From the NCBI RefSeq assembly GCF_055900595.2, contig NZ_CM148325.1: a DNA stretch of 64,000 bases, one strand, 5' to 3'. Under the pieces are notes generated by a model. It ran no database searches and was not told the DNA's origin. It was given only the letters and a program-made list of their open reading frames with translations. A program made the translations under genes and the position numbers. Every line of letters starts with the position of its first letter. The stretch's first letter is position 1. Positions 5,177 through 5,865 of this stretch are shown in pieces.

Positions 5177-5249
5177 GTATGTCGTACCTGTTTTTGGAAT
5201 TCTTTCCGCAATAGCTTCATGCAGACTACCTGTAGTGAGGGAAGCTGCT

Positions 5250-5340
5250 TAGAACACTATATATAGGGGGTATGTTTGGGATTCACTGCAAGATAGTGTG
5301 AAAATGGCCCTCTTGCAAGTGCATAACTTTGTGGATAACT
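5250..5340 (-). promoter_or_regulatory. nrdAB promoter-proximal regulatory region (NrdR-box-like palindromes and a DnaA box)
   Basis: acactatatatag (5254-5266) and caagatagtgtgaaaa (5289-5304) resemble NrdR boxes; tgtggataa at 5330-5338 is the reverse complement of the DnaA box TTATCCACA. Located 80-160 nt upstream of the nrdA start codon. Assigned by motif only. Confidence 0.4.
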
Positions 5341-5865
5341 CAGGAAGGAAAAAGTGGCTTCCGCGCACCTTAGGTCAGACAAGGTATCCGGGAAAGTCAA
5401 TGGGAAGAGAAAAATTTGTTAAAAATAACTGTTCGGCGATTTCTTGAACGGCAGAATAGTATGGGTAAATTGATATAGATGGTTTATTAATCTTGTCGCT
5501 AATGATTGTCAAAATTGATCTAAGCACGAATCATCACATAATCTGATGTATCAGTTGTGGTCAATATATAAGCGAATGTAAGCGATTGTTGAGTCGGAAA
5601 TGGTTGTTTTCTATTCGGTTATTGTTAAATACCAAGCCAATTTGTTACTTTTGCATATATTATAAGAATATTATTTATTACTTTAATTCAGTTTACATAT
5701 AACCGATTTACCTTAAGATTATTAATTTGAATTATGACACACTGATATTATTCATCAAATAATAACAAAATAGTCATTGCGCCGGGTTGTACAATTTACA
5801 AAAGAAATATACCCCATAGCGCATAATGCGATTAAATACGCCGTCTTATAGAAAATGATGGTTAG

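What the first reader, a model, noticed from the sequence alone, without database searches (positions are those of the whole stretch)
5177..5865. Long AT-rich divergent intergenic region between nrdA and yfaL with clustered regulatory motifs
This 689-bp non-coding region carries NrdR-box-like palindromes and a DnaA box near nrdA, followed by a 450-bp stretch (about 5400-5860) that is strongly AT-rich with phased A/T tracts, typical of H-NS-silenced adhesin promoters. The yfaL promoter is probably xenogeneically silenced and the region could hold unannotated small transcripts. This is speculative and motif-based.
Basis: inference. Interest (0 to 1): 0.2.

Follow-up and report, generated by a model that had tools for sequence, protein, structure and literature searches.

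The report
Known nrdA–yfaL regulatory spacer
This is the well-studied E. coli control region for the essential ribonucleotide reductase genes, joined to an AT-rich, H-NS-bound stretch that arrived with the neighbouring adhesin gene yfaL, so it is real but ordinary.

Summary
The window is E. coli chromosome. The spacer lies between nrdA (minus strand, ATG at 5176) and yfaL/ehaC (plus strand, conserved ATG at 5872), so it is 695 bp rather than 689. It is not entirely unannotated, because the 47-codon ORF ypaB lies at 5304-5447.

The nrdA-proximal 274 bp is the classical nrdAB regulatory region: promoter, three NrdR boxes, two DnaA boxes and HusR boxes. It is 97.8% identical to K-12.

The distal 424 bp (5448-5871, GC 0.30) is the most AT-rich stretch in the 64 kb. 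Most other Enterobacterales have ubiG directly upstream of nrdA, so this stretch belongs to the yfaL insertion. Its K-12 counterpart is a published "promoter island" reported as H-NS-bound in all ChIP studies compared.

The claimed phasing of A/T tracts is not supported. Tract number equals the shuffle expectation and the periodicity is not significant. I found no evidence for an sRNA: no Rfam hit, no terminator, no excess RNA structure, no conserved small ORF.

Verdict: already known. Side observations: nrdA promoter architecture differs between genera, and P1-type phages carry a copy of this promoter segment.

The parts
2891..5176 (-). nrdA coding sequence (class Ia ribonucleotide reductase alpha subunit); left boundary of the spacer
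   Evidence: 761-aa ORF. Full-length NCBIfam equivalog NF006578, 1644 bits. RefSeq annotation in the closest genomes.
5177..5283 (-). nrdA 5' leader, about 107 nt. The transcription start near 5283 is inferred from the position of the -10 hexamer.
   Evidence: -10 TATCTT at 5290-5295 and -35 TTGCAA at 5313-5318 with a 17-bp spacer, both hexamers identical to K-12. A leader of about 110 nt agrees with my recollection of Tuggle & Fuchs 1986; that paper was not read here.
5223..5238 (-). NrdR box 2 (non-canonical AG centre): TCACTACAGGTAGTCT. K-12 has GTAC at the first four positions.
   Evidence: It lies 15 bp downstream of box 1, as PMC12176259 describes for the newly identified box. That paper shows boxes 1+2 are the high-affinity NrdR site, with KD about 100 nM. 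Sequence and 11/16 consensus match.
5254..5269 (-). NrdR box 1: CCCCTATATATAGTGT, the main NrdR operator half-site
   Evidence: The only match in the 64 kb within 3 mismatches of the consensus. 14/16 to consensus and identical to K-12. Invariant block in the 13-genus alignment A3.
5286..5301 (-). NrdR box 0, overlapping the -10 hexamer: TCACACTATCTTGCAG. This is the earlier-predicted box, now considered weak.
   Evidence: 16-bp linker to box 1 and 10/16 to consensus. PMC12176259 reports boxes 0+1 bind with KD > 6000 nM.
5290..5318 (-). nrdAB core promoter: -35 TTGCAA, 17-bp spacer, -10 TATCTT
   Evidence: Read directly from the sequence; both hexamers identical to K-12, and the 17-bp spacer has one substitution. 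[quoted passage not shown]
5318..5338 (-). Tandem DnaA boxes just upstream of the -35: TTATCCACA (5330-5338) and TTATGCACT (5318-5326)
   Evidence: Perfect consensus hit. Both boxes are identical to K-12 and appear as direct repeat D2. DnaA regulation of nrdAB through three boxes is reviewed in PMC8203912.
5341..5391 (.). Two proposed HusR (YnfL) boxes: CACTTTTTCCTTCCTG at 5341-5356 (-) and CAGACAAGGTATCCGG at 5376-5391 (+). The second has one substitution at a non-consensus position.
   Evidence: The boxes listed in PMC12844172 for the ypaB/nrdA spacer were located in the window. The gSELEX peak maps to about 5330 after coordinate conversion.
5304..5447 (+). ypaB (b4605), a 47-codon ORF of unknown function that overlaps the nrdA -35, DnaA and HusR sites
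   Evidence: Annotated in K-12 and most RefSeq E. coli. Intact here with 3 amino-acid changes. Open in Pseudocitrobacter, internal stop in E. albertii. RNA detected by RT-qPCR (PMC12844172) and induced 9.6-fold by AZT (PMC11228462).
5438..5450 (-). Distal conserved block CGTTCAAGAAATC, the outer limit of nrdA upstream DNA shared with genera that lack yfaL
   Evidence: Invariant or near-invariant columns in A3. 12/13 match at the same distance from nrdA in Enterobacter. It coincides with the conservation break against K-12 and with the reach of blastn homology to E. albertii and Pseudocitrobacter, 5450-5458.
5448..5871 (+). AT-rich yfaL leader, the counterpart of the published H-NS-bound 'promoter island' (GC 0.297)
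   Evidence: Lowest GC in the window. TpA density 0.125/bp against 0.045. 6 promoter-like sites against 0.7/kb window-wide. 89.6% identity to K-12 with no indels. Absent from yfaL-less genera. K-12 island 2342143_534 is marked H-NS 'A' and maps to about 5387-5923.
5515..5542 (+). Promoter-like site TTGATC-16-CATAAT facing yfaL, about 330 bp upstream of the ATG
   Evidence: Found by the consensus scan. The same hexamers and spacing are listed as the yfaL 'constitutive promoter' in the RpoD genomic SELEX table (PMC3946193). Identical in K-12. Not shown to be the in vivo start site.
5872..9636 (+). yfaL/ehaC, AIDA-I family autotransporter adhesin; right boundary of the spacer. An extra in-frame ATG at 5866 occurs only in this allele.
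   Evidence: Full-length match to NF007285, 2741 bits. Annotated start. ATT in K-12 at the position of ATG 5866. The first ~800 bp are also AT-rich, GC 0.42-0.43.

Best explanation
The spacer is a composite of two unrelated pieces of DNA joined at about position 5450.

PIECE 1 (5177-5450) is the nrdAB control region.
- A sigma-70 promoter fires leftwards into nrdA.
- DnaA binds the two boxes just upstream of the -35. It activates or represses according to its level and bound nucleotide.
- Fis, IciA and HusR act further upstream.
- ypaB is an annotated ORF lying over these sites. Its conservation is most simply explained by the regulatory DNA beneath it.

PIECE 2 (5448-5871) is the AT-rich 5' flank of yfaL. 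It entered between ubiG and nrdA together with the adhesin gene. Because of its base composition it carries many promoter-like sequences and is a preferred H-NS substrate. H-NS filaments keep yfaL essentially silent in laboratory conditions. Published work also reports that H-NS modulates the adjacent nrdAB promoter.

SHOWN HERE: sequence identity of all elements to K-12, the composition, the promoter-site density, the junction and the patchy distribution of yfaL.
TAKEN FROM PAPERS (K-12 only): protein binding.
INFERRED: silencing of yfaL in this strain.
For: - Gene identities.
- All nrdAB elements are at the expected spacing and are identical or near-identical to K-12. The nrdA-proximal 271 bp is 97.8% identical.
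- NrdR box 1 is invariant across 13 genera.
- Published binding: NrdR boxes 1+2 (PMC12176259); DnaA, Fis, IciA (PMC8203912; PMC4009431); HusR (PMC12844172); H-NS on nrdAB.
- AT-rich piece: lowest GC in the 64 kb; the highest promoter-like density of any 534-bp span, top 0.5%; TpA density 2.8 times the window average.
- Its K-12 counterpart has the same length and GC, is a catalogued promoter island H-NS-bound in all ChIP data sets compared, and is an H-NS genomic-SELEX spacer.
- Junction: conservation drops from 97.8% to 89.6% at about 5448. Homology to yfaL-less genera ends there, and they continue into the ubiG terminator and ubiG.
- Distribution: ubiG is 323-614 bp from nrdA in about 66 loci, and yfaL is present in only 5 scattered taxa.
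- yfaL needed an inserted constitutive promoter to give a biofilm phenotype (PMC3764049).
Against: - No H-NS or expression data exist for this strain, and its leader allele is only 89.6% identical to K-12.
- The high-affinity H-NS motif TCGATAAATT is not enriched here: two 2-mismatch matches in about 0.7 kb, near the window-wide rate.
- Promoter-like density is not significantly above composition-matched shuffles, 6 vs 3.5 +/- 2.0. It follows from AT-richness rather than being a separate property.
- I found no readable paper showing yfaL derepression in an hns mutant. The primary H-NS/nrdAB paper (Cendra 2013) was not held.
- yfaL and its leader are present in 5425 of 5426 E. coli genomes, so any acquisition was ancient.
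- Homology of 5364-5450 to yfaL-less genera is patchy: z = 6-8 in two taxa and 2.7 or less in most. The junction is therefore located to within tens of bases, not exactly.
Confidence: 0.85

Rival explanations
1. The whole 695 bp, including the AT-rich part, is primarily an extended upstream control region of nrdAB. It would hold curved or AT-rich DNA with Fis, IHF and H-NS sites that time nrd expression in the cell cycle, and yfaL silencing would be incidental.
For: H-NS is reported as a repressor of nrdAB (PMC4009431; PMC12176259). From my own knowledge, an upstream AT-rich element is required for cell-cycle control of nrd (Sun et al. 1994; Jacobson & Fuchs 1998, not read here). The 424-bp part has kept exactly the same length between two alleles that differ at 44 positions. 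Predicted compaction of 5400-5860 is somewhat greater than in shuffles, 10/300.
Against: The AT-rich 424 bp has no counterpart in the roughly 66 genera where ubiG abuts nrdA with only 323-614 bp between them. nrdAB regulation therefore does not need it. It evolves about 4-5 times faster than the nrdA-proximal part, and other alleles are barely alignable (A4). The A/T-rich block nearest nrdA (5405-5430) lies inside the conserved ancestral piece, not in the 424 bp.
Confidence: 0.12
2. The AT-rich stretch encodes an unannotated small RNA or small protein.
For: There are many promoter-like sites on both strands. Published promoter islands yield short 9-14 nt oligo-RNAs (PMC3661553). ypaB RNA next door is detectable and inducible.
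Against: No Rfam match even at E <= 1. No intrinsic terminator. Folding energies are no better than shuffles on either strand, z = -0.90 and +1.11. The largest ORF (38 aa) is broken by stops in K-12, and the ORFs that do survive are only 20-24 codons. The leader is poorly conserved between allele classes. The promoter-island paper found essentially no long RNAs from such islands.
Confidence: 0.05
3. The determinant is intrinsic DNA curvature from helically phased A-tracts, rather than simple AT-richness.
For: The strongest tract-centre periodicity falls at 10.8 bp. Two local curvature peaks (about 5417 and 5501-5517) are in the top 0.5% of the window. The end-to-end/contour ratio is 0.557 against 0.81 in shuffles, 10/300.
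Against: Tract number equals the shuffle expectation, 22 vs 22.9. The periodicity is matched by 36/500 shuffles in the favourable band and 128/500 overall, and the AA/TT Fourier signal is not significant. 37 comparable curvature peaks occur across the window. Mean and maximum curvature are within the shuffle range, 43/300 and 82/300. The wedge parameters were recalled from memory.
Confidence: 0.1

Closest known systems
E. coli K-12 nrdAB regulatory region (NrdR boxes, DnaA boxes, Fis/IciA/HusR sites, ypaB; NC_000913.3 2344594-2344864)
   Same: Same locus, length and order of elements. The -35, -10, DnaA boxes, NrdR boxes 0 and 1 and one HusR box are identical. Overall identity is 97.8%.
   Different: Six substitutions. 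Two change the outer edge of NrdR box 2 (TCAC here, GTAC in K-12), which brings it one position closer to the consensus. One lies in the promoter spacer and one in a HusR box at a non-consensus position. YpaB differs at 3 residues.
Promoter island 2342143_534 yfaL/ypaB of E. coli K-12 (Panyukov & Ozoline 2013, PMC3661553)
   Same: Orthologous position, identical length (424 bp between ypaB and yfaL), GC 0.297 vs 0.288, and a comparable number of promoter-like sites, including the same TTGATC-16-CATAAT.
   Different: 89.6% identity, with 44 substitutions (19 AT-to-GC, 15 GC-to-AT). The window's allele is rare: >=99% identical in 9 of 5425 genome records. H-NS binding was measured only in K-12.
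H-NS-silenced adhesin and surface-structure loci of E. coli (other entries in the same promoter-island table such as fimB/fimE/fimA, yadN, ecpR, sfmA; cryptic autotransporters from my own knowledge)
   Same: An AT-rich upstream region, H-NS occupancy, association with genes predicted to be foreign, and little transcription in laboratory culture.
   Different: Here the silenced leader abuts the promoter of an essential housekeeping operon transcribed in the opposite direction. yfaL itself is nearly universal in E. coli rather than strain-specific.
nrdA upstream regions of other Enterobacterales (Citrobacter, Enterobacter, Raoultella, Pantoea, Erwinia, among others)
   Same: NrdR box 1 is invariant. 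A TTGAC block, a T-run and a GAAGAAATC block recur at similar distances from nrdA.
   Different: Those genera have ubiG 320-600 bp upstream and no AT-rich segment. Their perfect DnaA boxes lie in the leader, at +15 and +45 from box 1, where E. coli has NrdR box 2. E. coli's DnaA boxes lie 70 nt upstream of box 1, as in Serratia, Yersinia and Rahnella.

Membership tests
NrdR operator (tandem NrdR boxes at an RNR promoter) | 16-bp palindrome matching acaCwAtATaTwgtgt | tested here: met
   Box 1 matches 14/16 and is the only site in the 64 kb within 3 mismatches. Box 2 matches 11/16 and box 0 10/16, so those two are weak by sequence alone.
NrdR operator (tandem NrdR boxes at an RNR promoter) | Two boxes about 31-32 bp apart centre to centre (15-16 bp linker), overlapping or just downstream of the promoter of an nrd operon | tested here: met
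   Linkers of 15 bp (box 1 to box 2) and 16 bp (box 0 to box 1). The boxes lie between the -10 and the nrdA ATG. This matches the layout described in PMC12176259.
NrdR operator (tandem NrdR boxes at an RNR promoter) | [quoted passage not shown] | not testable with these tools
   Published for the K-12 sequence, KD about 100 nM for boxes 1+2. The window differs at two edge positions of box 2.
DnaA-regulated promoter | 9-mer DnaA box TTATNCACA close to the core promoter | tested here: met
   TTATCCACA at 5330-5338. The second box, TTATGCACT, deviates at the last base. A single box is not above chance in 64 kb: 5 found vs 2.46 expected.
DnaA-regulated promoter | Conservation of the box in orthologous promoters | tested here: met
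   A perfect TTATCCACA is found upstream of nrdA in nearly all 80 loci, in one of two fixed positions.
H-NS-silenced xenogeneic DNA / promoter island | GC content well below the genome average over several hundred bp | tested here: met
   GC 0.297-0.299 against 0.517, the lowest in the window.
H-NS-silenced xenogeneic DNA / promoter island | Unusually high density of promoter-like sites | tested here: met
   6 sites in 534 bp against 0.7/kb window-wide, the maximum of all 534-bp spans. This is not significantly above composition-matched shuffles, 3.5 +/- 2.0.
H-NS-silenced xenogeneic DNA / promoter island | H-NS occupancy in vivo | not testable with these tools
   Published for the K-12 orthologue in all ChIP data sets compared and by genomic SELEX. 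Not measured for this allele.
H-NS-silenced xenogeneic DNA / promoter island | Horizontal origin of the associated gene | tested here: met
   yfaL with its leader lies between ubiG and nrdA in only 5 of about 75 informative loci, scattered across families. One Rahnella species has it and its congeners do not. This is inference from distribution, not a phylogenetic test.
H-NS-silenced xenogeneic DNA / promoter island | Derepression of the gene when hns is deleted | not tested
   No readable paper reports it for yfaL.
Intrinsically curved DNA with phased A-tracts | Excess of A-tracts repeated at about 10.5 bp | tested here: not met
   Tract count equals the shuffle expectation. Periodicity is matched by 36/500 shuffles in the band and 128/500 overall. 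AA/TT Fourier is not significant.
Intrinsically curved DNA with phased A-tracts | Predicted curvature above composition-matched controls | tested here: inconclusive
   The end-to-end ratio is lower than shuffles (10/300), but mean and maximum curvature are within range, 43/300 and 82/300.
Small regulatory RNA | Match to a known family, a terminator, or significant and conserved structure | tested here: not met
   No Rfam match at E <= 1, no terminator, z-scores of -0.90 and +1.11.
ypaB small-protein gene | ORF kept open in diverged relatives | tested here: inconclusive
   Open in two E. coli alleles and in Pseudocitrobacter (66% identity), but interrupted by a stop in the E. albertii representative genome (NBRC 107761 = DSM 17582). 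The DNA is constrained by overlapping regulatory sites.

The most novel reading that the evidence does not exclude
In the Escherichia lineage the essential nrdAB promoter may have been re-architected together with, or as part of, the yfaL insertion.

E. coli, E. albertii and a yfaL-bearing Pseudocitrobacter share a promoter with DnaA boxes upstream of the -35 and an NrdR box 2 in the leader. Their nearest yfaL-less relatives (Citrobacter, Enterobacter, Kluyvera, Raoultella) carry DnaA boxes in the leader instead. The Escherichia core promoter is detectably similar to Serratia, Rahnella and Dickeya but not to Citrobacter or Enterobacter, even though the NrdA protein shows the opposite ranking.

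One reading is that a block running from yfaL through the AT-rich leader and ypaB to the nrdA promoter was imported or exchanged as a unit. That would place a housekeeping operon under a foreign promoter layout and next to an H-NS nucleation zone.
Probability: 0.15. Interest if true: 0.45.

Novelty: already known. Interest (0 to 1): 0.12.

Why it matters
It matters little as a discovery. The nrdAB control region is one of the most studied promoters in E. coli, and the AT-rich yfaL leader is already catalogued as an H-NS-bound promoter island.

The value here is corrective. The spacer is not uniform. It is an ancestral 274-bp nrdA control region fused to a 424-bp foreign leader. The 'phased A-tract' description and the hint of hidden transcripts do not hold up.

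If the side observation is real, it would be a tidy example of horizontally acquired DNA reshaping control of an essential gene. That observation is that the Escherichia nrdA promoter layout differs from that of its closest relatives and travels with yfaL. It would also explain why NrdR box 2 in E. coli is non-canonical.

Tried and rejected
- Lang H-NS high-affinity motif (TCGATAAATT, up to 2 mismatches): two weak matches in the spacer, near the window-wide rate. Not informative.
- Rfam at a permissive E-value: nothing.
- Terminator scan: nothing.
- RNA folding of a putative long yfaL 5' UTR and of the opposite strand: no excess structure.
- Small-ORF conservation between the window and K-12: nothing notable.
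- Repeat search in the spacer: only short repeats, namely the DnaA-box pair D2 and a 10-bp tandem ATATAAGCGA/ATGTAAGCGA at 5566-5585. No 45-bp inverted repeat was detected.
- IS5 in strain ET210: I suspected a promoter-activating insertion in the AT-rich leader. It lies inside yfaL at about 5902-5905 and so simply inactivates the gene.
- Primary papers for H-NS at nrdAB (PMC3754748) and for DnaA/Fis sites (PMC205060, PMC1409723) are not held. I relied on reviews and later papers that cite them.
- Coordinate conversion: my first conversion of the promoter island used a wrong offset of 2025 bp. With about 1975-1978 bp it maps to 5387-5923 rather than 5340-5873. The conclusions do not change.
- Strict local alignment of 5364-5450 to yfaL-less genera was at noise level. 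A more permissive test showed only patchy significance, so the junction is stated as approximate.
- Strict coupling between promoter type and presence of yfaL is rejected. RIT691 has yfaL with the leader-type promoter, and Serratia and Yersinia lack yfaL with the upstream-type promoter.
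Full report
WHAT THE WINDOW IS
The stretch 4900-6200 matches 5425 of 5426 complete E. coli genomes. It is 99.9% identical to strain Z0117EC0005 and 90-95% identical to most others. The ORF at 2891-5176 (-) is nrdA and the long + strand ORF is yfaL/ehaC, both with full-length NCBIfam equivalog matches. nrdB and yfaE follow nrdA. RefSeq annotation of a typical genome and of K-12 MG1655 places a third gene, ypaB (b4605, 47 aa), inside the spacer.

CHECKING THE OBSERVATION
The ATG at 5866 exists only in this allele (K-12 has ATT there). The conserved, annotated yfaL start is 5872, which gives a 695-bp spacer exactly as in K-12. ypaB maps to 5304-5447 (+) and is intact, with three amino-acid changes.

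The motifs are real.
- NrdR box 1 (5254-5269, CCCCTATATATAGTGT) is the only site in the 64 kb within 3 mismatches of the NrdR consensus.
- A perfect DnaA box TTATCCACA lies at 5330-5338 (-). A second box, TTATGCACT, lies three bases downstream of it on the nrdA strand, at 5318-5326.
- Taken alone, neither hit is statistically remarkable: 1 vs 0.44 expected and 5 vs 2.46 expected. Their arrangement, their identity to K-12 and their conservation across genera are what make them convincing.

The AT-rich stretch is confirmed. 5400-5860 has GC 0.299 against 0.517 for the window and is the lowest 461-bp segment in the whole window.

The 'phased A/T tracts' are not confirmed.
- 22 tracts of at least 4 bp are present, against 22.9 +/- 2.7 in dinucleotide shuffles.
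- The best periodicity (10.8 bp) is matched by 36 of 500 shuffles even when only 10-11.2 bp is considered, and by 128 of 500 overall.
- The AA/TT Fourier signal is not significant.
- A wedge-model curvature calculation, with parameters recalled from Bolshoy et al. 1991, gives two local peaks in the top 0.5% of the window. There are 37 such peaks in 64 kb, and mean and maximum curvature are within the shuffle range. Only the end-to-end ratio is somewhat low, 10/300.

ANATOMY OF THE nrdA-PROXIMAL PART
All coordinates below were verified by extraction, reading the minus strand.
- -35 TTGCAA at 5313-5318, a 17-bp spacer, and -10 TATCTT at 5290-5295. The inferred start is near 5283, giving a leader of about 107 nt.
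- NrdR box 0 (5286-5301) overlaps the -10. Box 1 follows after 16 bp and box 2 (5223-5238) after a further 15 bp.
- Rozman Grinberg et al. 2025 showed that boxes 1+2 are the high-affinity NrdR site (KD about 100 nM), whereas boxes 0+1 bind more than 40 times more weakly (PMC12176259).
- The DnaA boxes sit immediately upstream of the -35. DnaA, Fis and IciA are published activators or modulators, and H-NS and NrdR are published repressors (PMC8203912; PMC4009431).
- Two boxes proposed for the LysR-type regulator HusR (YnfL) map to 5341-5356 and 5376-5391 (PMC12844172).
- This 271-bp part is 97.8% identical to K-12. The only differences inside named elements are two bases at the edge of NrdR box 2 (TCAC here, GTAC in K-12; 11/16 vs 10/16 to consensus), one base in the promoter spacer, and one non-consensus base in a HusR box.

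THE AT-RICH PART
Against K-12, identity falls abruptly to 89.6% over 5448-5871. There are 44 substitutions and no indels, balanced between AT-to-GC (19) and GC-to-AT (15), so length and GC are preserved: 424 bp, 0.297 vs 0.288. TpA steps are 2.8 times as frequent as in the window overall.

Promoter-like sites are dense. There are six in 5506-5763 against 0.7 per kb in the window, the maximum of any 534-bp span. Compared with shuffles of the same composition this is 6 vs 3.5 +/- 2.0, so it is a consequence of AT-richness. One of the sites, TTGATC-16-CATAAT at 5515-5542 (+), is exactly the 'constitutive promoter' listed for yfaL in the RpoD genomic-SELEX table. That table marks this spacer 'HNS' (PMC3946193).

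Panyukov & Ozoline list a 534-bp 'promoter island' at yfaL/ypaB. It is associated with predicted foreign genes and carries the mark 'A', meaning H-NS binding in all the ChIP data sets they compared (PMC3661553). After conversion from U00096.2 coordinates it maps to about 5387-5923. The offset of about 1975-1978 bp comes from my knowledge of the two genome versions and was not verifiable here. Such islands are reported to bind RNA polymerase and H-NS, to give short abortive oligo-RNAs and almost no long RNA.

The Lang H-NS consensus is not enriched, so binding is best attributed to composition.

ORIGIN OF THE AT-RICH PART
A scan of one genome per species with the NrdA N-terminus returned 80 Enterobacterales loci.
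- In about 66 of them ubiG lies 323-614 bp upstream of nrdA on the same strand.
- yfaL is inserted between the two genes only in E. coli, E. albertii, a Pseudocitrobacter MAG (YfaL 68% identical), strain RIT691 (53%) and Rahnella bonaserana (53%). Other Rahnella species lack it.
- In alignment A3 the yfaL-less genera share blocks with E. coli from the nrdA ATG out to CGTTCAAGAAATC at 5438-5450. They then continue into a GC-rich hairpin and the 3' end of ubiG, whereas E. coli continues into AT-rich DNA.
- The homology of 5364-5450 is patchy: z = 6.3 and 7.7 in two taxa, 4.0 in RIT691, and 2.7 or less elsewhere. The junction is therefore approximate. It coincides with the within-species conservation break and with the limit of blastn homology to E. 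albertii and Pseudocitrobacter, 5450-5458.
- GC 400-700 bp upstream of nrdA is 0.25-0.29 in Escherichia and Pseudocitrobacter and 0.45-0.65 where ubiG is there.

The AT-rich 424 bp therefore belongs to the yfaL insertion, not to ancestral nrdA control DNA. The insertion is old. The leader is present in 5425 of 5426 E. coli genomes, although the window's allele is rare, at >=99% identity in nine records. Leaders of other allele classes (the GTDB E. coli representative, E. albertii, Pseudocitrobacter) are barely alignable apart from short blocks, and no conserved promoter stands out (A4).

HIDDEN TRANSCRIPTS
- No Rfam family matches at E <= 1.
- No intrinsic terminator is predicted.
- Folding energies of a putative 323-nt yfaL 5' UTR and of the opposite strand are no better than shuffles, z = -0.90 and +1.11.
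- The largest ORF in the AT-rich part (38 aa) is broken in K-12, and those that survive are 20-24 codons.
- ypaB RNA is detectable: it is HusR-dependent in stationary phase and induced 9.6-fold by AZT (PMC11228462). The ORF is open in Pseudocitrobacter but carries a stop in E. albertii. With about 20% DNA divergence, staying open by chance is not unlikely. I regard its protein-coding status as unresolved.

MECHANISM
Shown here: sequence identity of every nrdAB element to the characterised K-12 region; the composition and promoter density of the leader; the junction; and the patchy distribution of yfaL.
Taken from the literature for K-12: binding of NrdR, DnaA, Fis, IciA, HusR and H-NS.
Inferred for this strain: H-NS polymerises on the AT-rich yfaL leader and on the similarly AT-rich first ~800 bp of yfaL (GC 0.42-0.43), keeps yfaL off, and contributes to the reported H-NS modulation of nrdAB.
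Consistent with silencing: YfaL phenotypes in K-12 have been obtained by inserting a constitutive promoter directly upstream of its ATG (PMC3764049).
Gap: I found no readable report of yfaL derepression in an hns mutant.

SIDE OBSERVATIONS
1. Perfect DnaA boxes upstream of nrdA occupy one of two fixed positions across Enterobacterales. In the first layout the box lies 70-80 nt upstream of NrdR box 1. This is seen in Escherichia, Pseudocitrobacter, Serratia, Dickeya, Brenneria and one Yersinia species, and by distance from the ATG probably in the other Yersinia species, Rahnella, Hafnia and Edwardsiella. In the second layout the boxes lie in the leader at +15 and +45 from box 1. This is seen in Citrobacter, Enterobacter, Raoultella, Kluyvera, Cedecea, Kosakonia, Pantoea, Erwinia and RIT691.
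   - E. coli's NrdR box 2 sits where the second group has DnaA boxes.
   - The E. coli core/DnaA segment is weakly similar to Serratia, Rahnella, Dickeya and Brenneria (scores 40-47 against a shuffled maximum of 26) and at noise for Citrobacter and Enterobacter. NrdA identity ranks the other way, 97% vs 93%.
   - Promoter type does not strictly follow yfaL. RIT691 is a counter-example.
   - The Salmonella RNR paper shows DnaA boxes in a figure I could not see (PMC2892513), so this may be implicit in the literature.
2. About 130 bp of the nrdA upstream region (roughly 5298-5420, covering the -35, both DnaA boxes and beyond) has a homologue on P1-type phage-plasmids. There are 235 plasmid hits, and the segment also occurs in phages P1, P7 and SJ46. 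It lies about 130 bp upstream of the theta-homologue gene hot, and the -10/NrdR part is replaced by a different palindrome.

VERDICT
The feature is real and its flanks and motifs are correctly identified, but it is already known. The phased A-tract description and the suggestion of unannotated transcripts are not supported. Interest is low. The most novel reading left open is that the Escherichia nrdAB promoter layout came in or was remodelled together with the yfaL block.

Noticed in passing
window 5298-5420; L003 2453-2620: About 130 bp of the nrdA upstream region (the -35 TTGCAA, both DnaA boxes and the HusR-box area) has a homologue on P1-type phage-plasmids (235 plasmid hits in E. coli assemblies) and in phages P1, P7 and SJ46. 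It lies about 130 bp upstream of the theta-homologue gene hot. The -10/NrdR-box part is replaced by a different palindrome (TGTGTGTGCAAACACA). What the nrdA-like promoter drives on the plasmid is unclear: about 0.9 kb to its left has no annotated gene or convincing ORF.
   Followed up: partly
L006-L085, 450 bp upstream of nrdA (window equivalent 5177-5450): There are two fixed nrdA promoter layouts across Enterobacterales. In one, DnaA boxes lie 70-80 nt upstream of NrdR box 1 (Escherichia, Pseudocitrobacter, Serratia, Dickeya, Brenneria and one Yersinia species; probably the other Yersinia species and Rahnella by distance from the ATG). In the other, they lie in the leader at +15/+45 from box 1 (Citrobacter, Enterobacter, Raoultella, Kluyvera, Pantoea, Erwinia). 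Escherichia differs from its nearest relatives, and its NrdR box 2 sits where they have DnaA boxes.
   Followed up: partly
window 5235-5238: NrdR box 2 polymorphism: TCAC in this strain, E. albertii and Pseudocitrobacter, against GTAC in K-12. This allele is one position closer to the NrdR consensus, which could slightly change nrdAB repression.
   Followed up: partly
window 5448-9636: The window's yfaL and leader allele is rare. The leader is >=99% identical in only 9 of 5425 E. coli genome records and 80-95% identical in the rest. yfaL itself is 87.5-94.9% identical to K-12 depending on the segment. In the closest genome (Z0117EC0005) yfaL is annotated as a pseudogene, whereas the window ORF is intact.
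   Followed up: partly
window 5902-5905 (L005 1306/2453): Strain ET210 carries an IS5-like (ISKpn13 family) element inserted about 30 bp into the yfaL coding sequence. It inactivates the gene and leaves the spacer untouched.
   Followed up: yes
L007 (E. albertii), region equivalent to window 5304-5447: The ypaB reading frame has an internal stop codon in the E. albertii representative genome (NBRC 107761 = DSM 17582), although the DNA is highly conserved. This argues that conservation there reflects regulatory sites rather than a protein.
   Followed up: partly
window 36578-37343, 43125-43347, 45925-46234, 59421-59729, 26629-26819: These are other pronounced low-GC troughs in the window (100-bp minima 0.18-0.29). 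36578-36958 is the only other place with 461-bp windows below GC 0.36. They may be further H-NS-type regions.
   Followed up: no
window 18696-18704 (-) and 60342-60350 (-): Two further perfect DnaA-box 9-mers (TTATCCACA) occur elsewhere in the window. Their context was not examined.
   Followed up: no
window about 2656-2691 (+), between nrdA and nrdB: K-12 annotates an 11-codon gene, yoaM (b4779), in the nrdA-nrdB spacer overlapping the nrdB start. I did not check whether it is intact here. The 424-aa ORF listed for nrdB (1614-2888) over-extends the true 376-aa gene.
   Followed up: no
window 1617-5176 and 9776-10546: Core genes here are unusually diverged from K-12 for one species (nrdB 95.7%, nrdA 97.6%, ubiG region 96.9%). 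This suggests the strain belongs to a lineage distant from K-12, or that the neighbourhood has recombined.
   Followed up: no
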